Part shown: in pieces, positions 46,578-56,592 of the stretch | Layout: each line of letters starts with the position of its first letter | Numbering within the stretch: the stretch's first letter is position 1 | From: a virus | DNA: 64,000 bases | Strand: one strand, 5' to 3' | IMG/VR virus record: IMGVR_UViG_3300035696_000007 | Location: 108,010 to 172,009 of that record | Translations under genes and position numbers: made by a program | Notes under the pieces: model-generated | What the model was told of the DNA's origin: nothing | The model's input: the letters and a program-made list of their open reading frames with translations, nothing else | Database searches by the model: none

Positions 46578-47000
46578 ATGAACAAGAGCCGACGGGTGAT
46601 CAGCCAGCTGACGGAAGCCGGGCCGGACCAGGGACAGAAGCCCGACGCCCTCGCGGCACTGGTGGCCTTCGCCAAAGAGGTGGTCGAGGCGTTCGAGGAG
46701 CACGAGTCCGGCGACCTCAACGACATCCCGGCGGACATCGTCATCGAGCGCGGCCGGGCCGCGCTGAAGCTGGCCGGCGCGGACGTGTCCAGCCTGCAGA
46801 AGTACAAGGTCGAGCAGCTCTTCGGCGGCGACTGGGGCGACCCGCAGTGGGAGGAGAACGAACACCCCATGCGCTTCGACACCGAGGAGGAGGCCTGGGT
46901 GGAGGTCGACGAGTTCCTCGCCGACGCGGCGGCCGCCGCGGAGGCCGGGCACATGGCGGCGGGGTTCAGCCGGGACGAGTTCCGGGTCGTCCCCGCCTGA
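46578..47000 (+). CDS. acidic hypothetical protein (SRRVISQLTE N-terminus)
   Basis: TAGTTA-N4-ATG; antisense to the tRNA array. Confidence 0.7.
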   Translation: MNKSRRVISQLTEAGPDQGQKPDALAALVAFAKEVVEAFEEHESGDLNDIPADIVIERGRAALKLAGADVSSLQKYKVEQLFGGDWGDPQWEENEHPMRFDTEEEAWVEVDEFLADAAAAAEAGHMAAGFSRDEFRVVPA

Positions 47001-47003
47001 GAG

Positions 47004-47079
47004 TGGACCCCGCGGCGGGATTCGCACCCGCACCACCGGCCTTAGAACGACCGGGCGCTGTCTGTTACACCACGCGGGG
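47004..47079 (-). tRNA. tRNA-Arg(TCT)
   Basis: loop GUUCUAA. Confidence 0.85.
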
Positions 47080-47095
47080 AAGGGGTACTTAGGCC

Positions 47096-47332
47096 ATGAA
47101 GAGCGCCGTCGAGAGGCTGCTGGAGGACGACCGGCAACCGTGGAGCCACGAGAACACGGTCAACGCCATCGTCGGCTCGTTCGTCGGCTTCGACTTGGAC
47201 GCCAGCGTCGCCAGGCTGCGCGTCCTCCTGGCCAAGGTGCCCGACCCGCTGCTGCGCCAGGTCTACGACGCGATGCACGCGGGCGAGGAGGACACCCTCG
47301 CGAGGGGCCCCTACCGGTTCACCGACAAGTGA
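47096..47332 (+). CDS. hypothetical protein (MKSAVERLLE)
   Basis: TACTTA-N4-ATG. Confidence 0.65.
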   Translation: MKSAVERLLEDDRQPWSHENTVNAIVGSFVGFDLDASVARLRVLLAKVPDPLLRQVYDAMHAGEEDTLARGPYRFTDK

Positions 47333-47333
47333 G

Positions 47334-47407
47334 TGGTCGCCCCGCCGGGAATCCCACCCGGGACGCGGCCTTCGGAGGGCCGCATGATATGGCTTCACCA
47401 CGGGGCG
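47334..47407 (-). tRNA. tRNA-Arg(CCG)
   Basis: loop CUCCGAA. Confidence 0.85.
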
Positions 47408-47411
47408 AAAT

Positions 47412-47488
47412 TGGGGCGATCGACGGGGCTTGCACCCGCAACCCGCGGGCTCACAACCCGCTGCTCTGCTGATTGAGCTACGACCGCC
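47412..47488 (-). tRNA. tRNA-His(GTG)
   Basis: loop UUGUGAG; G-1:C73. Confidence 0.9.
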
Positions 47489-47489
47489 G

Positions 47490-47564
47490 TGGGGCCTCAG
47501 TGGGGATTTGCGCCCCCCTGTCCGATTTACAAAATCGGTCCCTCGCTGCCTAGGGGTCTGAGGC
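47490..47564 (-). tRNA. tRNA-Thr(TGT)
   Basis: loop UUUGUAA. Confidence 0.85.
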
Positions 47565-47587
47565 GAAGTCGAAGTTGTAGTTAAGGC

Positions 47588-47908
47588 ATGGAAAAGACTC
47601 CTGCACCGAAGCCGAAGCTGCGTGGAACCATGGCGCCGGGTTCCGCCCTCCTCAGCCTTGTCGCCGACATCGAGGCGATGCAGACCAATGTCCCCGACGA
47701 ATATGAGGGGGATGCGGCTGACCGCGGCTGGTTCGGCCCCTTCGAAACAGGGGTGTCCGCGTACGAGCGGGGCCACTTCATCCTGTGGCCCAACCTTGAA
47801 ATCCTTCTGGTGCAAGCCAAGGCGGCCCTGGAGGCGACCAAACCAAGAGGCTCCGCCGGCCCGGTCGAATCCAAAGCCTCCCGCCTCGTCGACAGGCTAC
47901 TCGAATGA
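47588..47908 (+). CDS. hypothetical protein (C-terminal ASRLVDRLLE)
   Basis: TAGTTA-N4-ATG. Confidence 0.65.
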   Translation: MEKTPAPKPKLRGTMAPGSALLSLVADIEAMQTNVPDEYEGDAADRGWFGPFETGVSAYERGHFILWPNLEILLVQAKAALEATKPRGSAGPVESKASRLVDRLLE

Positions 47909-48390
47909 GCCACCGTTTCATCCTTTTCGGCGGCGGGTCTGGGAACGTCTACGGCGTCAGCGACGCCGCGAGCTTCGAGGAGGCGTGGAAGGAGATCCTG
48001 GCGGCGGGCGGGCCGCTGGGCTACTCGGCTGGCGGGGAGCCCGGGGGCGAGGTCGAGCGCGAGTGGCCCGAGTTCGACGACATGTCGGTGATGCTCGGGG
48101 GCGCGGAGATCGAGAAAAAGGACGGCTACTGGCTGATCACCGCCCGCGACTCGGACGAGGGCCAGTTCGGACTGCTGGACGCCCAGTCCGCCAACTCGGC
48201 GGTGCAAAAGGAGATCGAGGATCTCGGCCTGCAGAAGTACGCCGACGAGTTCGTCGCCGAGAAGGCCGCGCTGGACGCCGAGGCCGAGGACGAGATGCAC
48301 CGCCAGGCGGTCTACGCGCAGGCGCCGCAGCACGAGTCGGTCAAGGCGGCCGCGAAACGGCTGGTCGACGCGCTGCTCGGCGAGGCCTGA
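47905..48390 (+). CDS. acidic hypothetical protein (C-terminal AKRLVDALLGE)
   Basis: coupled ORF. Confidence 0.7.
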   Translation: MSHRFILFGGGSGNVYGVSDAASFEEAWKEILAAGGPLGYSAGGEPGGEVEREWPEFDDMSVMLGGAEIEKKDGYWLITARDSDEGQFGLLDAQSANSAVQKEIEDLGLQKYADEFVAEKAALDAEAEDEMHRQAVYAQAPQHESVKAAAKRLVDALLGEA

Positions 48391-48393
48391 AAG

Positions 48394-48469
48394 TGGGGCC
48401 ACCGACCCGAGTCGCACGGGCAACGTCCTGTTTACGGAACAGGTGCTCTGCTGATTGAGCTACGGCGGC
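48394..48469 (-). tRNA. tRNA-Thr(CGT)
   Basis: loop UCCGUAA. Confidence 0.85.
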
Positions 48470-48474
48470 GAGAT

Positions 48475-48549
48475 TGGTAGGCGCGGGAGGGGTTTCGCCT
48501 CCACCCAAGGGATTATGGGTCCCCTGCTCTGAGATTGAGCTACGCGCCC
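48475..48549 (-). tRNA. tRNA-Ile2/Met(CAT)
   Basis: loop CCCAUAA. Confidence 0.8.
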
Positions 48550-48553
48550 GAAG

Positions 48554-48639
48554 TGGTGCGGCCGGCGCGAATCGCACGCGCACGCCCCGGAGGGCAGCGG
48601 GGTTTAGGCCCGCCGCGTCTGCTGTTCCGCCACGGCCGC
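48554..48639 (-). tRNA. tRNA-Leu(TAA)
   Basis: loop CCUAAAC; variable arm. Confidence 0.85.
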
Positions 48640-48644
48640 GAAGT

Positions 48645-48728
48645 TGGTGGGGGCGGAGGGGGTTGCACCCTCATGCCTCGCGGCCGGGGGTTTTGGGTCC
48701 CCTGCGTATGCTGTTCCGCCACGCCCCC
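48645..48728 (-). tRNA. tRNA-Leu(CAA)
   Basis: loop CCCAAAA; variable arm. Confidence 0.85.
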
Positions 48729-48733
48729 GAGAT

Positions 48734-48810
48734 TGGCGGCGGCGACGGGAGTTGCACCCGCATTTCACCGGCTGAGAACCGGGGTTCCTAGGCTGTTAGA
48801 AGACGCCGCC
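48734..48810 (-). tRNA. tRNA-Glu(CTC)
   Basis: loop UUCUCAG. Confidence 0.85.
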
Positions 48811-48817
48811 ATGAAAT

Positions 48818-48893
48818 TGGCCGCCCCGACGGGATTCCCACCCGTGTCGCAGGCTTGAAGGGCCCGCATCCTGGGATGCTAGAAGACGGGGCG
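48818..48893 (-). tRNA. tRNA-Glu(TTC)
   Basis: loop CCUUCAA. Confidence 0.85.
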
Positions 48894-48896
48894 AAA

Positions 48897-48981
48897 TGGT
48901 ACGGGTAGAGGGACTCGCACCCCCATGCCTTGCGGCGCCGCCTTCTGAGGGCGGTGTGTCTGCTGATTCCACCATACCCGC
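48897..48981 (-). tRNA. tRNA-Leu(CAG)
   Basis: loop CUCAGAA. Confidence 0.85.
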
Positions 48982-48987
48982 GTGAAA

Positions 48988-49245
48988 CTATTCGGCCATC
49001 GCCCTGCGGATCGCGGCGAGCGCGGCCGGGTCCCCGGCCTTGGCCCTCTTGGCGAACAGGGCGAACGAGGTCCCCCTGACGGCGTCGGTGACCGGCTTCC
49101 GGCCGTGGAGCCTCTGGAGGTCGAGCTCGGCGGCGCGGCGGGCGACTCTCTCGCCGTAGGCGTCGCGCAGCCACCGCACGGCGTCCACCGTGCTGCCCTC
49201 CTCCCTGGGCCTGGCCAGGGCGTCGGCTATCCTGACGAGCCTCAT
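48988..49245 (-). CDS. hypothetical protein
   Basis: TACTTA-N4-ATG. Confidence 0.6.
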   Translation of the reverse strand: MRLVRIADALARPREEGSTVDAVRWLRDAYGERVARRAAELDLQRLHGRKPVTDAVRGTSFALFAKRAKAGDPAALAAIRRAMAE

Positions 49246-49257
49246 GCCCTAAGTAAA

Positions 49258-49342
49258 TGGTGCGGTCAGGGGGAGTCGCACCCCCACGGGTCACCCCACC
49301 GGCCCCTCAAGCCGGCGCGTCTGCTGGTTCCGCCATGACCGC
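49258..49342 (-). tRNA. tRNA-Leu(GAG)
   Basis: loop UUGAGGG. Confidence 0.85.
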
Positions 49343-49352
49343 GAAAAATCGT

Positions 49353-49616
49353 TCAGCCCCGGACGTGGTACTCGATGCGCAGCCGGGCCCTGTCCTCCGC
49401 CGAAACGCACTCCCAGCACTCCACCTGGCCGGGGAAGAATACCCGCACGGGCAGGTCCTCGGGGTAGTCGCCCTTCATCTCGACGAAGACGGTGTGGCAG
49501 CGCTTCTCGGCGTCCCAGAGGTTCAGCTGGGCCGCGCACCCCGAAAGGAGCCGCCCGCCGACTTTGAACCTGATTTTGATGCCGTGCGGCGGCAGGAGCC
49601 TGTTGATGCTGATCAT
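49353..49616 (-). CDS. hypothetical protein
   Basis: GTTCT motif upstream. Confidence 0.6.
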   Translation of the reverse strand: MISINRLLPPHGIKIRFKVGGRLLSGCAAQLNLWDAEKRCHTVFVEMKGDYPEDLPVRVFFPGQVECWECVSAEDRARLRIEYHVRG

Positions 49617-49632
49617 GCCCGTAAGAACAAAG

Positions 49633-49708
49633 TGGGGCCTCCTGTCGGATTTGCGCCGACCGTCCTCCCCTTACCAAGGGGTAGCATCGCTGCCTATGCT
49701 TAGGAGGC
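49633..49708 (-). tRNA. tRNA-Thr(GGT)
   Basis: loop UUGGUAA. Confidence 0.85.
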
Positions 49709-49709
49709 G

Positions 49710-49786
49710 TGGTAGCACCGGTCGGATTTGCGCCGACGACCTTCCCCTTATGAGGGGGCTGCGCTGGCTGGCTGCGCCACGGTGCC
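49710..49786 (-). tRNA. tRNA-Met(CAT)
   Basis: loop CUCAUAA. Confidence 0.85.
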
Positions 49787-49793
49787 ATGAAGT

Positions 49794-49872
49794 TGGTGGG
49801 GGCCGAGGCAGTTGCAGCCTCACGGATGGTCCGGGTAAGGGCCGGGTGCCCGTCTACTGTGGCTTGACCCCC
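49794..49872 (-). tRNA. tRNA-Lys(CTT)
   Basis: loop CCCUUAC. Confidence 0.8.
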
Positions 49873-49879
49873 GAAAGTT

Positions 49880-50089
49880 TTCCAGCCCGAGCGTAGCCGC
49901 GATTCTGTTTTATCCGCACATCACTCTAGGCCGCTACCATGCCCTCTTGACGGGAAGCACTACCCTGGGGCCCTTTTGCGTTGCAGCTACCATGCGGTGT
50001 TGGCGGGCCCGCGCCCTCCCGATCGGCTGCTTTGCTGTCGCGAACTTCCTCCGGGGACGAGCCCCGGCGTGCAGTCCTCTTGGCTGGAA
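49880..50089 (-). ncRNA. rnpB: minimal RNase P RNA (~210 nt, S-domain largely deleted)
   Basis: P1 UUCCAGCC/GGCUGGAA, P2, P3, CR-I GAGGAAGUUCGCGA, CR-IV CUAGAGUGAUG, CR-V ACAGAAUCGCGGCUA. Confidence 0.85.
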
Positions 50090-50096
50090 TCGAAAG

Positions 50097-50171
50097 TGGC
50101 TGGGGCGGCAGGATTCGCGCCTGCGCCATCGGGGTTCAAGGCCCCGCGTGCTGCTGTTACACCACGCCCCA
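50097..50171 (-). tRNA. tRNA-Gln(TTG)
   Basis: loop CCUUGAA. Confidence 0.85.
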
Positions 50172-50191
50172 AAAAGCTGTTCTGACGAGGC

Positions 50192-50827
50192 ATGGTCGAC
50201 TACTCGACGATCCCCGCCTCCTGCCAGATCCCCGGCCTGGCGGGCATCTACCGGAAGTGGCTCGCGCCCGCGGAGACGGGCGCCTTCGTCGAGGTGGGGG
50301 CCTACAGCGGCATCGCCTACAGCAACACCTACTGCTTCTGCCTCGCGGGCTGGCGCGGGCTGCAGATCGAGCCGCACCCCGCGACCTTCGCCTCGCTGCT
50401 GGAGAACATGCGGCCCTTCCCGAACGTCGCCTGCGAGCAGGTGGCCTGCTCGGACTGCGACGGGGAGGCGAGGCTGTACGACATGGGGGAGTGCTCCACG
50501 CTCGTGCTGGACGAGAACGCGCGGGCCTGGGGCTGCCGCGAGGACCGGTTCATCGTGGTCAGGACGACCCGGCTGGACGGGCTGCTGGAGAGGCACGCCA
50601 TCCCGCCCGGCTTCGAGGTGCTGGTCGTCGACGTCGAGGGGGCGGAGCTGTCGGTGCTGGCCGGGCTCGACCTGCGGCGGTGGCGCCCGAGGATGGCGAT
50701 CGTGGAGACGCACGAGAAGCACCCGAGCATCCTACACCCCAACGCCTGGGCCATCACCAAGCACTTTGAGGACCGGGGCTACTGCAAGGTCTACGCCGAC
50801 CACATCAACAGCATCTTCGCCCGCTGA
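50192..50827 (+). CDS. FkbM-family methyltransferase
   Basis: FVEVGAYSG..SNT..GW.GLQIEP; RLDGLL; VDVEGAELSVL. Confidence 0.85.
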   Translation: MVDYSTIPASCQIPGLAGIYRKWLAPAETGAFVEVGAYSGIAYSNTYCFCLAGWRGLQIEPHPATFASLLENMRPFPNVACEQVACSDCDGEARLYDMGECSTLVLDENARAWGCREDRFIVVRTTRLDGLLERHAIPPGFEVLVVDVEGAELSVLAGLDLRRWRPRMAIVETHEKHPSILHPNAWAITKHFEDRGYCKVYADHINSIFAR

Positions 50828-50830
50828 AAC

Positions 50831-50906
50831 TGGTGGAGGTGGCGGGATTCGCACCCGCGGCCTACGCGATGCCATCGCGCCGCTCTGCTGGCTGAGCTAC
50901 ACCCCC
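50831..50906 (-). tRNA. tRNA-Ala(GGC)
   Basis: loop AUGGCAU; G3:U70. Confidence 0.9.
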
Positions 50907-50955
50907 GAAAAAGTTGATCCAAGCAGCCGCGCTTAGAGTTCTTGTTTACATTCCC

Positions 50956-51351
50956 ATGAACACGAAACAGACGCTGCAGACACTGTTGAGCTACTACACG
51001 GCGACCCGCAAGATCGGCCACACCCGCGCGATGCTTGCCGGGGCGCAGAATACAGATGGTTGTCTTATTCTCACCGGCGTGGATGACATCGCCCTGACTC
51101 CCCCCAAAGGCGCCTCGTGCGTCAACGTCGTCTATGACGACAATCTGGTCCAACACTTCGTGGGTGTGCGCAAGCCCATGCTAGTGGACAACTCCGCCAT
51201 CGAGCACATCCTGCGCACGTCGCTGGCCGAGATCACCCGGCTGGAGACCCACGTCAAGCGGCTGAAGACCGAGAAGGCGCACCTGGCGCAGGGCAGACCC
51301 GGCCAGATCCCGGCCGAGGCCCCGGCGGCCCCCGGCGAGCTGCCGGCCTGA
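50956..51351 (+). CDS. hypothetical protein
   Basis: ORF, RKIGHT. Confidence 0.6.
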   Translation: MNTKQTLQTLLSYYTATRKIGHTRAMLAGAQNTDGCLILTGVDDIALTPPKGASCVNVVYDDNLVQHFVGVRKPMLVDNSAIEHILRTSLAEITRLETHVKRLKTEKAHLAQGRPGQIPAEAPAAPGELPA

Positions 51352-51354
51352 AAG

Positions 51355-51429
51355 TGGCTGCGGCGACTGGCTACGCTCCAGTGACTTCGGTTTCAGAGAC
51401 CGACGTGTTACTAGCTACACCACACCGCA
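51355..51429 (-). tRNA. tRNA-Gln(CTG)
   Basis: loop CUCUGAA. Confidence 0.85.
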
Positions 51430-51471
51430 AAGGAGTCTTCTTCACCGTCCGAGAACAGACCGTGCGTAGAT

Positions 51472-51548
51472 TGGTCGGCCCGGTGGGATTCGCACCCACG
51501 GTCTCTTGCTCCCGAAGCAAGCGCGATACTAGGCTACGCCACGGGCCG
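51472..51548 (-). tRNA. tRNA-Pro(CGG)
   Basis: loop UUCGGGA. Confidence 0.9.
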
Positions 51549-51556
51549 AACGGAAA

Positions 51557-51632
51557 TGGTGGTCGGCGGGGGACTCGCACCCCCGGTCCCCTGCATGTCG
51601 CGCAGGTGCCTTGGCTGCTGGGCTAGCCGACC
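51557..51632 (-). tRNA. tRNA-Val(GAC)
   Basis: loop GCGACAU. Confidence 0.85.
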
Positions 51633-51639
51633 GGAAAGC

Positions 51640-51716
51640 TGGTCGGGCCGGCGGGATTCGCACCCGCGGTCTCCTGCACCCCATGCAGGCGCGATGCTAG
51701 GCTACGCTACGGCCCG
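51640..51716 (-). tRNA. tRNA-Pro(GGG)
   Basis: loop AUGGGGU. Confidence 0.9.
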
Positions 51717-51721
51717 GAAGA

Positions 51722-51796
51722 TGGCTGCTCGGGCAGGACTCGCACCTGCAACCCTGGTGTTAACAGCACCCCGCTCTACTTTGGAGCTACCGAGCA
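51722..51796 (-). tRNA. tRNA-Asn(GTT)
   Basis: loop CUGUUAA. Confidence 0.85.
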
Positions 51797-51804
51797 ATGG
51801 AAAG

Positions 51805-51933
51805 TGGTGCCGGCGCTTGGAGTCGAACCAAGTCTAGTCTATTAGCAGTAGAAGTAACCCTCGTCATCACTGCGCCTTGCGACGAGAATAGGAGACCCGG
51901 GTGTTTTCTGTGCTACCGTTACACTACACCGGC
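51805..51933 (-). ncRNA. tRNA/Y-RNA chimera 1 (CCA end, GCU loop)
   Basis: GCCGGUG/CGCCGGC-ACCA, D arm, inserted UAUUCUCG-GCAA-GCAGUGA..GGUUACUUC stem, UUCGACU T-loop. Confidence 0.75.
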
Positions 51934-51941
51934 AGAAGCCT

Positions 51942-52071
51942 CCCGGGAGGAAGTCGAGTAGGGGTTTGGCCGGGTTTGCGGCCCGGTGCCTGACCATTTG
52001 GCGTACTGTCCCCTTTCGGGGGCGGTATCGGAATCGAACCGATGAAGTAACCCTAGCCCTCACTGCCCGGA
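51942..52071 (-). ncRNA. YrlA-like Y RNA with circularly permuted tRNA domain
   Basis: GCAGUGA..GGUUACUUC, T arm, GAAA-capped acceptor stem, D arm, CCGCAAA anticodon arm, ACUUCCUC. Confidence 0.75.
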
Positions 52072-52074
52072 AGA

Positions 52075-52151
52075 TGGTGCTCCGCGAGGGACTCGCACCC
52101 CCGTTTTTCCTCTGTGTGGAAGAGGTACCATAGCTGCTAGGAGAGCGGAGC
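52075..52151 (-). tRNA. tRNA-Val(CAC)
   Basis: loop UCCACAC. Confidence 0.8.
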
Positions 52152-52169
52152 GAAAGTGGTAGTTAGCGC

Positions 52170-52466
52170 ATGAGCGAGACCATCAGGCGCCTGGTCGAGT
52201 ACGAGGAGGACTGCCTCTACAACAACCCCATCGAGCCCGACCTCAAGAAGGAGGGCTGGGAGCTGATCGGCACGGGCGGCGGCTGCACGGCGGCCATCAA
52301 GCGCGTCGGCAGGGCGAGCCTGCTGCTCACCGACCAGGCGGAGGCCCCGCTCAGCCTCGACCAGGAGTGCACGCTCGGCGTCTACGACGAGGACGAGAAG
52401 GTCGTGATGACGTTCACCGTCACGGCGCGGCAGGCCCTGGAGCTGGGCCGCACGGCCAGCTGGTAA
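52170..52466 (+). CDS. hypothetical protein (MSETIRRLVE)
   Basis: TAGTTA-N4-ATG; TGGGCTA motif. Confidence 0.7.
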   Translation: MSETIRRLVEYEEDCLYNNPIEPDLKKEGWELIGTGGGCTAAIKRVGRASLLLTDQAEAPLSLDQECTLGVYDEDEKVVMTFTVTARQALELGRTASW

Positions 52467-52468
52467 GA

Positions 52469-52510
52469 TGGCGGGCAGCGTCCTGGTGCGTTTGAACGAA
52501 ATCTCCGCCC
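52469..52510 (-). ncRNA. mini tRNA-like hairpin with GCCA end
   Basis: GGGCGG/CUGCCC-GCCA. Confidence 0.35.
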
Positions 52511-52515
52511 TAAAG

Positions 52516-52592
52516 TGGCGGCGCCAAGGAGTGCTGCCCTCCCCTCTCAACCGTGACAGGGTTGCGCTTTCGGCTAGGTAAGCTATGGCACC
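52516..52592 (-). tRNA. tRNA-Asp(GTC)
   Basis: loop CUGUCAC. Confidence 0.85.
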
Positions 52593-52599
52593 AAGAAAA

Positions 52600-52676
52600 T
52601 GGTCAGCGTGGTGGGATGCGCGCCCACGACCGCCGGTCCCCAAAGCCGGAGCTCTGCTAGGCTGAGCTACACGCTG
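52600..52676 (-). tRNA. tRNA-Pro(TGG)
   Basis: loop UUUGGGG. Confidence 0.85.
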
Positions 52677-53038
52677 AAATTGTTCCGATGAGTCAGTTTC
52701 CTCTCACGGTAGGTTTTTCTCCGGTGGCAGTTGGCGCACCGGACATCACATTTAGCCACTTCCGCGATCACTGACTGTAATGAAAAACTTCGACGTCGGG
52801 CATCCCCAAGGTCGAACAATTTCTTAACTCCTGGTCGATGGTCGAACTCCAGCACGATAGGATCAGTCTCCCCACAATCGACACAAGGATGGGTAAAAAG
52901 GTACCCCGTCAAGTACACAGCTGTTTGCGCACGTACCTTAGCGTTATGTGCCATCGCTCTAGCAACATAAGCACCTTTATTTCTTCGATAATGCGCACGA
53001 GAAGATCGTCTTCGATCCTCTATCCGTTTATAGGGCAT
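52667..53038 (-). mobile_element. HNH homing endonuclease inserted in the tRNA array
   Basis: CVDCGETDPIVLEFDH..EVAKCDVRCANCHRRKT; low GC; stop lies inside tRNA-Pro 5' end. Confidence 0.85.
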
Positions 53039-53055
53039 AATCTTTAGAACAAAAT

Positions 53056-53133
53056 TGGGAGCAGGGGTGGCGCTCGAATCCACGTTATTGGGCTTATGAG
53101 ACCCAGCTGGGACCATCTCCAGTCGACCCTGCT
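53056..53133 (-). tRNA. tRNA-fMet-like (CAT)
   Basis: UGGGU-CUCAUAA-GCCCA, GGG/CCC stem. Confidence 0.75.
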
Positions 53134-53152
53134 ACGATAGGTACTATGAAAG

Positions 53153-53229
53153 TGGTGGGAACGGCTGGCGTTGCACCGGCGACCTCCGCTTTTTCAGAGC
53201 GGCGCTCTACCTGGCTGAGCTACGTCCCC
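53153..53229 (-). tRNA. tRNA-Phe(GAA)
   Basis: loop CUGAAAA. Confidence 0.9.
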
Positions 53230-53355
53230 TGGAGGCATCTGCCGCTGTTTGGGCGGCATACGCGGGCGGTTTCAAGGCCCGGGTGAAGTAACCCTGACGC
53301 TCACTGCGCCTTGCGGCGAGGATCAGGCTTCAAGGTACCTGTATTCACAGATGCC
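53230..53355 (-). ncRNA. tRNA/Y-RNA chimera 2
   Basis: GGCAUCU/AGAUGCC-UCCA enclosing GAUCCUCGCC-GCAA-GGCGCAGUGA..GGUUACUUC. Confidence 0.7.
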
Positions 53356-53359
53356 AAAG

Positions 53360-53493
53360 TGGTGGCGCTGTCAGGATTCGAACCTGAATAGGTCAACTTT
53401 TTGGGTTGATGTGTTTTCCGAAGTAACCCGCCCTATCACTGCGCCTCGCGGCGAGAATAGCCGGGTGGGTGTTGTAGTTTTCACCACAGCGCC
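53360..53493 (-). ncRNA. tRNA/Y-RNA chimera 3
   Basis: GGCGCUG/CAGCGCC-ACCA, UAUUCUCGCC-GCGA-GGCGCAGUGA..GGUUACUUC, UUCGAAU T-loop. Confidence 0.75.
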
Positions 53494-53499
53494 GAAAAT

Positions 53500-53555
53500 T
53501 GGTGGACCGCCCCGGTGATCAGCCAGGCTAGTGCGAGGTTTCCACGCAGCGGTCC
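53500..53555 (-). ncRNA. 56-nt mini tRNA-like RNA
   Basis: GGACCGC/GCGGUCC-ACCA + 5-bp T arm + one hairpin. Confidence 0.55.
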
Positions 53556-53560
53556 GAGAG

Positions 53561-53634
53561 TGGCACGCCCCCAGGGAGTCGCACCCTGCCGCCAGGTTTT
53601 GGAGACCCGGCCCTCGCTCCGAGCTGTGGGACGT
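53561..53634 (-). tRNA. tRNA-Trp(CCA)
   Basis: loop CUCCAAA. Confidence 0.8.
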
Positions 53635-53635
53635 A

Positions 53636-53710
53636 TGGTAGCCGCGTAGGGTGTCGCGCCCTCGTCTCCCGCTTATCGAGCGGGTGCTCTGCTGGTTGAG
53701 CTACACGGCC
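53636..53710 (-). tRNA. tRNA-Ile(GAT)
   Basis: loop UCGAUAA. Confidence 0.85.
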
Positions 53711-53717
53711 AAAGGCA

Positions 53718-53834
53718 TGGGGACGAGCGGGGTTTCACCGCCTTCTAGCTTGCGAGGCCAGTTTTGCCGGCCAGCGAAGGGAACGGGATTCGCGGTCCCT
53801 ATTGTTACCTTTTGCCAGCGTTCTGTTCGCCCCC
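53718..53834 (-). ncRNA. expanded tRNA-like RNA
   Basis: GGGGGCG/CGUCCCC-A acceptor, GGCGG-UGAAACC-CCGCU T arm, extra internal hairpins. Confidence 0.45.
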
Positions 53835-53845
53835 GAAAGGGAAAG

Positions 53846-53932
53846 TGGTCCCGGCGGGAGGACTCGCACCTCCGCAGCCCCGAAGGGCGACTGGGTTACG
53901 GCCAGTTGCAGTTGCTACTGTGCCACACCGGG
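53846..53932 (-). tRNA. tRNA-Tyr(GTA)
   Basis: loop CCGUAAC; variable arm. Confidence 0.85.
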
Positions 53933-53990
53933 AAAAGAGTGCCCGTGATTACGGCTCACGGGCAAAGCCAAATGTTCCGCGTGGAACATG

Positions 53991-55445
53991 CTAAAGCTCG
54001 ACCGCCTCGATGCGGTGGACGAGCGCGGCGCGGTCCTGCTCAAGGATCTTGAACAGGTCGAACACCTTGTCGGACCAGCCGGCGATGCAGTAGACCTTGT
54101 CCTCAGGGAACTGGATGGAACCCTGATGGTTGAGGTCCCAGCTGTAGACCGCCGGACGGACGCCCGCCTTGCGGACGTAGGCCTCGAACGACTGCATGCC
54201 CGTCCGCCCGCTGACCCAGTTCTGCTGGTCAGAGAGGATGACGATACGGGAGTACTTGCGGCCATCCGCCGTCCCGGCGATGAGCCGGAGCGCGCAGTCG
54301 AGGTCGGTGCCACCCCCGGTGAAGGGGATGTGCTTGGCGACCGTGAAGACCGAGTCGGTCAGGTTCAGGTTCACGTACTGGGCGTGGGTGTCAAAGACCA
54401 CCACGTCAGCGTTCCAAGCCTTCGCGAGGATCGCGGTGAACAGACCACCGATTTGCGCCGGGGAACCCTGCATGGAACCGGAAACGTCGAGGATGACACA
54501 CGAGCTGCCCTCGAACACGGGCACGTTCGCGACAGACAGGTCGATCACCTTGGCCAGGGCCGAGGAGATCTGCCGGAACTGCGCGGACGGCAGGCCCGCC
54601 GACTCGACCGCCGCCAGAGCGTTCTGCACCTGGAACGGGAAGATCAGAGCCTTGCGGACGGCCGCCGGGTCGCCGAGCTGGGCGAGGGCCTCCGGGAGGA
54701 CCTCGGGGGCCTGCTGGGCGAGGTTGCGCAGGTTGCGCAGGAGGGCCAGGTACTTGAGCTTGCGCTCGCGCACCAGGGACACCCACGCGTCCTTCTTGGC
54801 CTCGACCACGGACTCCTCGTCCTCGGCCTGGCCCGCCTTGGTGAGCTTGGCCTCCCAAGTCTCGGCGGGGGCGAGGGTGCCCTTCATGAGCTGGCTGAGG
54901 GCCGGGGTGGCCTTCGGGCGGACGAGGTTGACCACGTCCACCAGGTTGAAGGCCGCGCCCTCCTTGCGGTACTTCGCGAGGGCGTAGGCGTCCTGACGGG
55001 ACAGCGCCGCGCCGAGGCCCTTCTTCAGGGAGTTCGGGATCGGCTTGCCGTACTTGGTCAGGTAGTAGGCCAGGATCTCGACGGCGTCATCGGCCCGGTA
55101 GACCACGCGGTCGAAGAACCGCTTGGTCCACGGCTGGCCCTTCACGGCCTTGGCGATCTCGGCCGCCACGGCGTGGGTGATGGAGCGCATGCCGAACTCC
55201 CGGCGGGCGTACAGCGCGGCCTTGGCCGCGAAGGCCGGGTCGACCTGGCCCACGAGCTCGGTGACGCGCAGGAGCACGTCGCTGGAGCTGCGGTAGAACT
55301 GGTCCTGGACGAAGCTGGTCAGCATGGTGCTGACGAGCTCCAAAGCGGCGGTCGGCTTGAAGGCCGGGCCCCCCGCGAGGTTGACGGTGTTGCCCGCAGA
55401 AACAGACTTGCGGGCCACCTTCGGGTTGGTGGCGAAACGGGACAT
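53991..55445 (-). CDS. rsr: Ro60/TROVE-domain RNA-binding protein with vWA domain
   Basis: NLAGGPAF, QDQFY, YARREFGMRS, YALAKY, TWEAKL, ALLRNLRN, FPFQ, DVSGSM, GGTD, ILSDQQ, GWSD; AGGAGG RBS. Confidence 0.92.
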   Translation of the reverse strand: MSRFATNPKVARKSVSAGNTVNLAGGPAFKPTAALELVSTMLTSFVQDQFYRSSSDVLLRVTELVGQVDPAFAAKAALYARREFGMRSITHAVAAEIAKAVKGQPWTKRFFDRVVYRADDAVEILAYYLTKYGKPIPNSLKKGLGAALSRQDAYALAKYRKEGAAFNLVDVVNLVRPKATPALSQLMKGTLAPAETWEAKLTKAGQAEDEESVVEAKKDAWVSLVRERKLKYLALLRNLRNLAQQAPEVLPEALAQLGDPAAVRKALIFPFQVQNALAAVESAGLPSAQFRQISSALAKVIDLSVANVPVFEGSSCVILDVSGSMQGSPAQIGGLFTAILAKAWNADVVVFDTHAQYVNLNLTDSVFTVAKHIPFTGGGTDLDCALRLIAGTADGRKYSRIVILSDQQNWVSGRTGMQSFEAYVRKAGVRPAVYSWDLNHQGSIQFPEDKVYCIAGWSDKVFDLFKILEQDRAALVHRIEAVEL

Positions 55446-55510
55446 GGCGTCCTCCTAGTTTTGGGTTTTAGACTGCCCGATCCGGCGTCGTGCCGGGCCG
55501 GGAGGAGAGA

Positions 55511-55580
55511 TGGGGAGGAAATCGGCCACGGGTTTGTTTTCCTATAACCAGGGAGAAGTAGCCGCGACCTCACTGCCCCA
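55511..55580 (-). ncRNA. minimal Y-RNA-like element
   Basis: GGGGCAGUGA..GGCUACUUC..AAACCCG..GAUUUCCUCCCC. Confidence 0.7.
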
Positions 55581-55597
55581 AGATGTTCGAAAGTGAT

Positions 55598-55697
55598 GCG
55601 CCGGGAGGAAATCGCAGGCGGTGTTTTCTGGTGGGCCTTTCGGCCCGTCCATTTTGTGGTTGGAGTAGAAGTAACCGCATTGCTCACTGCCCAGCAC
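55598..55697 (-). ncRNA. Y-RNA-like element
   Basis: GGGCAGUGA..GGUUACUUC..AACACCG..GAUUUCCUCCC. Confidence 0.7.
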
Positions 55698-55710
55698 ACG
55701 AAGGTGGCCA

Positions 55711-55778
55711 CAGCAGGAGAAAACCGCCGACGGGTTTGTTCATGATGTTAGAAGTAACCGTAAGCTCACTGCCTGCTG
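55711..55778 (-). ncRNA. minimal Y-RNA-like element
   Basis: CAGCAGGCAGUGA..GGUUACUUC..AAACCCG..GGUUUUCUCCUGCUG. Confidence 0.7.
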
Positions 55779-55787
55779 CGATGAAAG

Positions 55788-55864
55788 TGGTACCCCGTGA
55801 GGGACGTGCGCCCTCCCTGCCTGGTTGGAAGCCAGGAGTGCTCGGCTGTTGACACCAACGGGGC
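55788..55864 (-). tRNA. tRNA-Gly(TCC)
   Basis: loop CUUCCAA. Confidence 0.85.
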
Positions 55865-56046
55865 GAGAAAGTTTTGGAAGATGGCTGCCGTGCCCGTGAG
55901 CACTCCCCATGGCGGTAACGTACCCGGGTGTCCCCGCCAAGCGTGCCACCGTTCGGGCCGGCGCAAGTCTCGATCAGCGGCGCGCGGGGGCTGTAGACCC
56001 CCGCAGACCTCGGTGAGGCGCGCCGTCACGCCGGCCTTATCCAAAT

Positions 56047-56122
56047 TGGTGGACCGGATGGGGATCGCACCCACCGCACGCTCCTTGCGAAAGAGCATCG
56101 CCTCTGAGGTACATGCCGGCCC
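56047..56122 (-). tRNA. tRNA-Ala(CGC)
   Basis: loop UUCGCAA; G3:U70. Confidence 0.85.
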
Positions 56123-56240
56123 GGAAGATAGTTTTGGGGCTTTTACCCCTTCCCGTCGAACTCTCGGGTGCCACTGGGGCCCCGTGGAGGGAAGCGGCCA
56201 GCGCGACGACGCCGCTATTGGGTCCCGTCGCTGGCTAAAG

Positions 56241-56315
56241 TGGAGAGGCGTGCTGGAGTCGCACCAGCGCATAGGAGTTTTGCGGACTCCGGCCTTGCTG
56301 CTTGGCTAACGCCTC
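56241..56315 (-). tRNA. tRNA-Cys(GCA)
   Basis: loop CCGCAAA; U73. Confidence 0.85.
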
Positions 56316-56592
56316 AACGGAAGAGCTGCCTGAGGGCCTGGGCGGCGAGGCGGGCCCGGGTGGGCTCGTCGATGTCGCCGGTGACCACGTCGCCGCCGTC
56401 GGTCGTGACCGCGTCGATGTCGGCGTACCAGCCGGGCTCGTTGCCGAGCGAGCCGGGCGCGCCCTCGTTGTAGGCGCACGTGGCGTCCACGACGACGGGC
56501 ACGTCGTCCTCGCCCCGCAGCGTCACGAAGGCGTCGAACCGGACGGTCTTGGATTCGCCTAGGAGCTGCTCAAGGACGGCGCGGGCTTTCAC
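56314..56592 (-). CDS. hypothetical protein (ARAVLEQLLGE)
   Basis: TAGTTA-N4-GTG. Confidence 0.65.
   Translation of the reverse strand: MKARAVLEQLLGESKTVRFDAFVTLRGEDDVPVVVDATCAYNEGAPGSLGNEPGWYADIDAVTTDGGDVVTGDIDEPTRARLAAQALRQLFR

What the first reader, a model, noticed from the sequence alone, without database searches (positions are those of the whole stretch)
51942..52071. Y RNA containing a complete circularly permuted tRNA that retains a Cys anticodon arm
Seen: between the two strands of the conserved stem the order is T arm (AUCGG-UUCGAUU-CCGAU), acceptor 3' strand, GAAA loop, acceptor 5' strand, D arm, then CCGGG-CCGCAAA-CCCGG. The Y stem therefore opens at the variable-loop position and the anticodon arm is kept; its loop matches that of the phage tRNA-Cys at 56241. 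In described YrlA RNAs the Ro stem takes the place of the anticodon arm. An unchargeable full tRNA shape would suit a decoy for anticodon nucleases or synthetases (inference).
Basis: partly seen in the sequence, partly recalled or inferred. Interest (0 to 1): 0.75.

Follow-up and report, generated by a model that had tools for sequence, protein, structure and literature searches.

The report
Phage Y RNA with anticodon-like arm
A large uncultured phage encodes, next to its Ro60 (Rsr) gene, a YrlA-type Y RNA whose tRNA-like half carries an extra anticodon-style hairpin, and the same hairpin with other loop sequences occurs in related RNAs of other phages.

Summary
On the minus strand (52074-51939) lie, in order: a Y stem 5' strand, a T arm with a canonical T loop, a closed acceptor-like stem, a D arm, one A, a perfect 5-bp/7-nt hairpin, and the Y stem 3' strand. 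The hairpin loop CCGCAAA equals the anticodon loop of the phage tRNA-Cys.

It is one of seven Y-RNA modules around a TROVE/vWA rsr gene. It fits the YrlA class except that described YrlAs have no hairpin after the D arm.

The hairpin is not chance. A syntenic homolog in a 225-kb phage and nine other phage or metagenome YrlAs have a 5-bp hairpin exactly one purine after the D stem. This was seen in 0 of 51 ordinary YrlAs, and the chance rate is about 1.7% per sequence. Most of these loops are 7 nt with U33 and a purine at 37.

The arm is the most variable part between close relatives. The syntenic homolog has a different, 9-nt loop, so mimicry of tRNA-Cys in particular is not conserved.

Ordinary YrlAs carry an anticodon-format hairpin on the other side of the Y stem, labelled the "V" arm. 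This RNA is therefore a new variant of a known kind.

The parts
52050..52074 (-). Y stem 5' strand, holding the CAGUGA element and the start of the conserved GGUUACUUC (52052-52044)
   Evidence: Read. The motif is shared by seven modules in this genome, all on the minus strand near rsr, with 0 control hits. The GGUUACUUC part is also shared with about 90 phage YrlA-like RNAs; the CAGUGA element is specific to this phage and its close relatives.
52027..52043 (-). T arm: 5 bp, canonical T loop UUCGAUU
   Evidence: The T stem is identical or nearly so in the related X-arm RNAs. The phage's own tRNAs instead have G at position 55.
52005..52026 (-). Acceptor-like stem closed by a GAAA loop (52017-52014), with two C.A mismatches
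   Evidence: The G001 homolog has a 7-pair stem with one C.A mismatch at the same place relative to the junction.
51988..52002 (-). D arm: 3-bp stem, loop with GG
   Evidence: 83% identical to the G001 homolog over the D region.
51970..51986 (-). Extra anticodon-arm-like hairpin: 5 bp, loop CCGCAAA (51981-51975), GCA at 51979-51977, preceded by a single A (51987)
   Evidence: Present in the minimum-free-energy fold.
51939..51965 (-). Y stem 3' strand with a bulged C and the CUUCCUC element. The CCAA linker at 51966-51969 precedes it.
   Evidence: The same layout is seen in the paralogs and in the relatives.
53991..55445 (-). rsr (Ro60 ortholog), 484 aa, TROVE plus vWA domains; about 1.9 kb upstream on the same strand
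56241..56315 (-). Phage tRNA-Cys(GCA), whose anticodon loop equals the hairpin loop

Best explanation
This is a YrlA-class Y RNA of the phage's Ro60 (Rsr) system.

Shown:
- Its 5' and 3' ends pair into the bulged stem that all seven Y modules of this phage share.
- The middle is a tRNA-shaped module with a canonical elbow (GG in the D loop, UUC in the T loop), a closed acceptor stem, and an anticodon-arm-shaped hairpin one purine after the D stem.
- The Y stem therefore leaves the cloverleaf on the variable-region side.
- The gene sits between a tRNA-like gene ending in CCA and a tRNA-shaped Y RNA.
- The hairpin is kept in shape across phages while its sequence is replaced.

Inferred:
- The RNA is released by the enzymes that process the phage's tRNA array.
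- Rsr binds the stem.
- The tRNA module serves as an unchargeable tRNA surrogate that engages a tRNA-binding factor reading both elbow and anticodon arm.
- The hairpin acts as an exchangeable specificity cassette.
For: - Rsr gene on the same strand 1.9 kb away.
- Seven modules with the same 5' motif, all within about 4 kb, none elsewhere in 172 kb.
- Feature-by-feature match to the YrlA layout described in PMC4201824 and to 51 phage YrlAs.
- A syntenic homolog in G001 with the same order (tRNA-like gene, this RNA, CCA-ended Y RNA) and an extra 5-bp hairpin whose stem sequence is entirely different.
- Ten distinct RNAs with the hairpin exactly one purine after the D stem, seven different stem sequences, all fully paired.
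- 0 of 51 ordinary YrlAs have it; chance is 1.7%.
- Most loops are 7 nt with U33 and a purine at 37.
- TROVE genes lie beside four of these RNAs.
- The arm is the least conserved part between close relatives: 0.3-0.6 identity against 0.8-1.0 for the T arm, D arm and 5' motif.
Against: - No expression, end-mapping or binding data.
- The published 5' motif GNCGAAN0-1G is not literally present.
- The acceptor stem has two mismatches.
- The single-sequence fold is not unusually stable.
- One close relative (L273) lacks the arm, and two others have non-anticodon hairpins with tetraloops. The arm is therefore dispensable or replaceable.
- Which helix stacks on the D stem in three dimensions is unknown.
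- No partner protein is identified. No RtcB or CCA-adding enzyme was found in the 76%-complete record.
Confidence: 0.6

Rival explanations
1. Decoy. The unchargeable tRNA shape with an anticodon arm soaks up a host anticodon nuclease, a synthetase or another anticodon reader. The arm sequence tracks the specificity of the host factor.
For: - The arm keeps the anticodon-loop format while its sequence turns over fastest, as expected in an arms race.
- This loop carries the same C33 as six of the 21 ARAGORN-called tRNAs of this phage.
- Phage tRNAs are proposed to evade tRNA-targeting defences through anticodon-loop changes (PMC10264068, listed).
- The Y modules keep the canonical elbow that the phage's own tRNAs have lost.
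Against: - There is no functional test.
- Some arm triplets (AAC, AAU) are, to my knowledge, not natural bacterial anticodons, and one arm has 6 and one 9 loop bases.
- A close relative has no arm (L273).
- No cognate nuclease is known.
- Loop identity with a tRNA in the same locus is only marginally enriched.
Confidence: 0.15
2. Evolutionary leftover. The hairpin is the anticodon arm of the second tRNA in the dimeric-tRNA origin proposed for YrlA, or it was picked up by recombination within the tRNA array. It now serves only as a structural spacer.
For: - The dimeric-tRNA model is cited in bioRxiv 10.1101/312249.
- Ordinary YrlAs keep an anticodon-format hairpin on the T-arm side: 35 of 51, and 29 of 51 with U33 and R37, against 1.9 expected in shuffles.
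- L124 carries a tRNA-Leu-like D arm together with a UAG arm.
- The arm can be absent (L273).
Against: A neutral relic should decay. Instead the 5-bp stem, the one-purine spacing, the 7-nt loop, U33 and R37 persist across lineages with unrelated stem sequences. The arm was also never seen together with a V hairpin: 0 of 51 V-bearing YrlAs have it. This suggests that one such arm is wanted.
Confidence: 0.2
3. A permuted pre-tRNA that is cut and rejoined into a working tRNA-Cys, as in the permuted tRNA genes of some algae.
For: - The arm order is that of a permuted tRNA.
- ARAGORN calls the in-silico de-permuted sequence tRNA-Cys.
- M. smegmatis YrlA is opened by RNase P and receives CCA.
Against: - ARAGORN also of 43 constructs with a shuffled arm, so that call means little.
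- The acceptor stem has two mismatches and no CCA.
[quoted passage not shown] - The phage already has a tRNA-Cys.
Confidence: 0.02
4. A chance hairpin in GC-rich spacer sequence.
For: The genome is GC-rich, and CCGGG/CCCGG also forms the terminal helix of the same RNA.
Against: The hairpin occupies the same position in 10 distinct homologs, against a 1.7% chance per sequence.
Confidence: 0.02

Closest known systems
YrlA (Y RNA-like A) of Salmonella Typhimurium, Mycobacterium smegmatis and mycobacteriophages (Chen et al. [quoted passage not shown]
   Same: - Encoded beside rsr on the same strand.
- The ends pair into the Ro-binding stem.
- The YUAY element is present.
- The order is T arm, closed acceptor-like stem, D arm.
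- The elbow residues are canonical.
   Different: - It has an extra 5-bp/7-nt hairpin between the D arm and the 3' strand. Described YrlAs have a short linker there and are said to lack an anticodon loop.
- There is no V hairpin.
- The 5' motif reads CAGUGA rather than GNCGAA.
- The D stem has 3 bp, and the T and D stem sequences differ from the conserved YrlA ones.
Deinococcus radiodurans Yrn1
   Same: It is a Ro-bound Y RNA. Chen 2014 already drew a possible anticodon arm for it, with a 5-bp stem and a 6-nt loop.
   Different: Yrn1 has the opposite order of T and D elements and no full D arm. Its stem-loop lies between the arms rather than after the D arm.
Circularly permuted tRNA genes of Cyanidioschyzon merolae and related cases (cited)
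   Same: The acceptor stem is closed by a loop and the ends lie elsewhere in the cloverleaf.
   Different: Those are matured into real tRNAs by the splicing endonuclease and a ligase. Here the long Y stem is conserved for Ro binding, and nothing suggests maturation.
tmRNA and viral tRNA-like structures (TYMV TLS)
   Same: They are tRNA mimics with an L-shaped core.
   Different: They have a free CCA end and are aminoacylated. This RNA has a closed acceptor stem.

Membership tests
YrlA-class bacterial/phage Y RNA | Encoded within about 4 kb of an rsr (TROVE) gene, on the same strand | tested here: met
   rsr lies at 53991-55445 (minus strand) and the RNA at 52074-51939 (minus strand).
YrlA-class bacterial/phage Y RNA | 5' motif GNCGAAN0-1G, the proposed Rsr contact | tested here: inconclusive
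   The motif is not literally present. GCAGUGAG stands at the equivalent distance before the YUAY element. The 51 phage YrlAs also vary here, and all seven paralogs share the variant.
YrlA-class bacterial/phage Y RNA | Conserved YUAY after the 5' strand of the stem | tested here: met
   UUAC lies within GGUUACUUC.
YrlA-class bacterial/phage Y RNA | T arm, then a closed acceptor-like stem-loop, then a D arm, with canonical elbow residues | tested here: met
   The acceptor stem is irregular and the D stem has 3 bp.
YrlA-class bacterial/phage Y RNA | The Y stem takes the place of the anticodon stem and there is no anticodon loop (description in Wang 2018) | tested here: not met
   An anticodon-format hairpin follows the D arm. 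This is the point of difference. It is a descriptive trait of the characterised members rather than a criterion used to define the family.
YrlA-class bacterial/phage Y RNA | Bound by Rsr; carries pseudouridine 55 and dihydrouridine | not testable with these tools
   Needs immunoprecipitation and modification mapping.
tRNA (Rfam RF00005) | Contiguous cloverleaf with free acceptor ends | tested here: not met
   The native sequence gets no significant tRNA-clan hit from Rfam (only a tRNA-Sec match at 17.4 bits against a gathering score of 47, E = 1.1) and no ARAGORN call. Only the de-permuted construct is called, and that test is unspecific.
Permuted tRNA genes | Maturation to a functional tRNA | not testable with these tools
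   Mismatched acceptor stem, no CCA, and no splicing endonuclease known in bacteria.

The most novel reading that the evidence does not exclude
YrlA-type Y RNAs carry one exchangeable anticodon arm. It sits either before the T arm (the so-called V arm) or after the D arm (this class). The arm aims the Ro60-Y RNA particle, or a decoy, at anticodon-reading host factors such as tRNA-cleaving defence nucleases. The phage's Y-RNA set would then be a counter-defence that complements its elbow-rewired, C33-bearing tRNAs.
Probability: 0.15. Interest if true: 0.85.

Novelty: new variant of a known kind. Interest (0 to 1): 0.6.

Why it matters
What the tRNA-like half of bacterial Y RNAs binds has been open since 2014. 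Two results here narrow the question.

- A subclass keeps an anticodon-format arm after the D arm.
- The ordinary "V" arm also has anticodon format.

Together they suggest that the unknown partner reads a whole tRNA shape, not only the elbow. They also point to the arm as the part under fastest change.

This gives concrete constructs to test: arm deleted, or arms swapped. It also gives concrete support to the dimeric-tRNA origin model.

In this phage clade the Y RNAs keep the canonical elbow that the phage's own tRNAs have lost. That argues they are read by a host-type factor.

Tried and rejected
- **Rfam.** There was no hit at the locus even at E up to 10. Rfam also fails to hit textbook-like YrlAs in L012 and L024, so the blank says nothing.
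- **BLAST of the locus against GenBank phages.** No match. The closest Rsr proteins are only 43-52% identical.
- **ARAGORN on the de-permuted sequence.** It calls tRNA-Cys. A shuffled-arm control on 43 YrlA constructs is still called 35 times, so I give this test no weight.
- **Automatic detection of the 3' strand.** It often misplaced the strand. I replaced it with a stricter parse.
- **MAFFT alignment of 12 X-arm RNAs (A1).** It puts the arm out of register by one to two columns. I therefore did not run the count of structure pairs or build a covariance model, and pair counts come from the explicit parse.
- **RNA-repair partners.** No RtcB and no CCA-adding enzyme in the 172-kb record.
- **Reviews.** The reviews by Sim and Wolin (2018, 2020) are not held, so I cannot exclude that they mention such arms.
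- I reran it from references.

Full report
**Context**

The window is the last 64 kb of a 172-kb IMG/VR virus record. The minus strand between about 47000 and 56800 holds a dense tRNA array: 21 ARAGORN calls plus further Rfam tRNA hits. It also holds a 484-aa gene with TROVE and vWA domains at 53991-55445, which is an Rsr/Ro60 ortholog. The finding lies on the same strand, 1.9 kb downstream of rsr.

**Observation**

- stem 5' strand (52074-52050), ending in GGUUACUUC;
- a T arm with a canonical UUCGAUU loop (52043-52027);
- an acceptor-like stem closed by GAAA (52026-52005);
- AC;
- a 3-bp D arm with GG in its loop (52002-51988);
- one A;
- a perfect 5-bp hairpin with loop CCGCAAA (51986-51970);
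- CCAA;
- the stem 3' strand (51965-51939).

Two corrections are needed. The acceptor stem is irregular: four C-G pairs, then an extension with two C.A mismatches. The D stem has only three pairs.

The phage tRNA-Cys has exactly the same 7-nt anticodon loop.

The RNA begins right after the CCA of a tRNA-like gene (52151-52075). It ends five bases before the 5' end of a tRNA-shaped RNA (51933-51805). The tRNA-processing enzymes could therefore release it; this is inference.

**It is a Y RNA**

The 5' element (CAGUGA, about eight bases, then GG-U/C-UACUUC) occurs seven times in the 172-kb record. All copies are on the minus strand within about 4 kb of rsr, and a reversed-pattern control gave no hits.

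The GGUUACUUC part, followed by a canonical T loop, retrieves about 90 YrlA-like RNAs from IMG/VR. These have the layout published for YrlA: 5' motif, YUAY, optional V hairpin, T arm, closed acceptor stem-loop, D arm, 3' strand.

Rfam 15 does not detect these RNAs at all. Its silence at the locus therefore carries no information.

**The extra hairpin is real and recurrent**

In 51 ordinary phage YrlAs the D arm is usually followed by a linker of about 7-12 bases before the 3' strand (that parse sometimes misplaced the 3' strand). None of the 51 has a perfect 5-bp hairpin starting one base after the D stem. Shuffled sequences give such a hairpin in 1.7% of cases.

A complete 225-kb phage (G001) has the same gene order: tRNA-like gene, homolog of this RNA, CCA-ended Y RNA. 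Its homolog is 76-83% identical in the 5' motif, T arm and D arm. It carries a 5-bp hairpin at the same place, but with an unrelated stem sequence and a 9-nt loop.

A narrower pattern for V-less YrlAs found further cases in IMG/VR and in metagenomes. In all, ten distinct RNAs have a fully paired 5-bp stem exactly one purine after the D stem, with seven unrelated stem sequences.

The loops of the nine distinct hairpins, counting the 4-bp arm of L281, are as follows:

- Seven have 7-nt loops. Six of those have U at the second position, and this one has C, like the phage's own tRNA-Cys. All seven have a purine at the sixth position.
- One lineage has a 6-nt Met-like loop.
- G001 has a 9-nt loop.

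L124 combines a tRNA-Leu-like D arm with a UAG loop. A TROVE gene lies near the RNA in the four records I could test.

One close relative (L273) lacks the arm. Two others (L264, L072) have hairpins with tetraloops. No case turned up among the 22 bacterial YrlAs I could parse.

**The arm is the fastest-changing part**

Between close relatives the 5' motif, T arm and D arm are 0.8-1.0 identical, while the arm is 0.3-0.6 identical. The shape is conserved and the sequence is replaced.

The identity of this loop with the phage tRNA-Cys loop should not be over-read. Across 28 arms in loci that also hold tRNAs, five equal the loop of a tRNA in the same locus, against 2.5 expected by permutation, p about 0.06. 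The syntenic homolog is not Cys-like.

The shared C33 is still notable. In this phage Thr-CGU, Leu-UAA, Leu-CAA, Val-GAC, Tyr-GUA and Cys-GCA all have C33.

**Ordinary YrlAs also contain an anticodon-format hairpin**

The hairpin that Chen 2014 labelled V, for variable arm, starts at the UUC of the conserved element. In 35 of 51 phage YrlAs it has at least 4 of 5 pairs, a 7-nt loop, and 3-6 bases (mostly 5) before the T stem. Shuffles give a mean of 12.6 and a maximum of 21.

In 29 of 51 it also has U33 and a purine at 37. Shuffles give a mean of 1.9 and a maximum of 6. The triplets are diverse. The same holds for 11 of 22 bacterial YrlAs, 9 of them with U33 and R37.

So the V-bearing majority of YrlAs examined (35 of 51 phage, 11 of 22 bacterial) already read as whole permuted tRNAs in which the Y stem enters between the D arm and an anticodon-like arm. 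In the present class the arm lies on the other side of the Y stem.

The two arrangements were never seen together: 0 of 51 V-bearing RNAs have the arm after the D stem. This fits the dimeric-tRNA origin model quoted in bioRxiv 10.1101/312249: the T side comes from a first tRNA and the D side from a second, with either anticodon arm retained. I found no statement of the anticodon format of these arms in the papers I could read. The two Sim and Wolin reviews were not available.

**Mechanism**

Shown:

- the anatomy;
- the genomic association with rsr;
- conservation of the arm's shape with turnover of its sequence;
- Y modules of this phage and of G001 that keep the canonical elbow, whereas the phages' own tRNAs have G at position 55 and no GG in the D loop (also noted earlier in the scan).

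Inferred:

- Rsr binds the bulged stem.
- The tRNA module engages a factor that reads canonical tRNA features. Wang 2018 argued for an elbow-reading partner.
- The arm adds or sets specificity.

Whether that factor is recruited to Rsr or sequestered (the decoy idea) cannot be decided here. No RtcB or CCA-adding enzyme is encoded in the 76%-complete record.

**Rivals**

- A neutral relic is unlikely, given the preserved spacing, stem length and loop format.
- Maturation into a tRNA-Cys is unlikely. The acceptor stem is mismatched, there is no CCA, and the homolog is not Cys. The ARAGORN call on the de-permuted sequence is uninformative because of its shuffled control.
- Chance is excluded by the comparative data.

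**Verdict**

This is a real, conserved structural variant of a known RNA family, with a family-wide corollary about anticodon-format arms. Its Cys-specific and decoy readings are unproven.

Noticed in passing
window 51805-51933, 53230-53355, 53360-53493 (minus strand): Three tRNA-shaped RNAs have 7-bp acceptor stems and encoded NCCA ends. In them the Y stem is closed by a GNRA-type loop and sits between the D arm and an anticodon-format hairpin. Four to five bases then separate that hairpin from the T arm. G001 has syntenic homologs. An earlier first-reader note of this scan also lists them.
   Followed up: partly
window about 55510-55790 (minus strand): Three small Y RNAs without a tRNA module lie directly upstream of rsr. 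They share the same 5' and 3' stem elements.
   Followed up: partly
window 47000-56320 (minus strand), tRNA genes: Six of the 21 ARAGORN tRNAs have C instead of the near-universal U at position 33: Thr-CGU, Leu-UAA, Leu-CAA, Val-GAC, Tyr-GUA and Cys-GCA. All 21 have a purine where U55 normally stands (G in nearly all), and most lack GG in the D loop. The Y-RNA tRNA modules keep the canonical elbow. The same contrast is seen in G001.
   Followed up: partly
window 52075-52151 (minus strand): A tRNA-like gene ending in ACCA has a CAC anticodon-like loop with C33. ARAGORN misses it, and so does Rfam at gathering score. Its only weak hit is to the Tymovirus tRNA-like element (25.9 bits).
   Followed up: no
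L007-L125 (IMG/VR) and L288-L367 (bacterial genomes): The 'V' hairpin of ordinary YrlA RNAs has anticodon-arm format: 5 bp, a 7-nt loop with U33 and R37, then about 5 bases before the T stem. It carries many different triplets. The format is far beyond shuffled expectation.
   Followed up: yes
window 52070-52066 / 51947-51943 and 51986-51982 / 51974-51970: The two strands of the extra hairpin have the same 5-base sequences as the two strands of the terminal helix of the same RNA. The G001 homolog does not share this, so it is probably a coincidence of GC-rich sequence.
   Followed up: no
L260 (G001:55000-66000, minus strand): The related 225-kb phage packs 32 tRNA genes (plus one tRNA-like call with an undetermined anticodon), a tmRNA and seven Y modules into 11 kb. 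Its rsr lies about 7 kb from the homolog of this RNA.
   Followed up: partly
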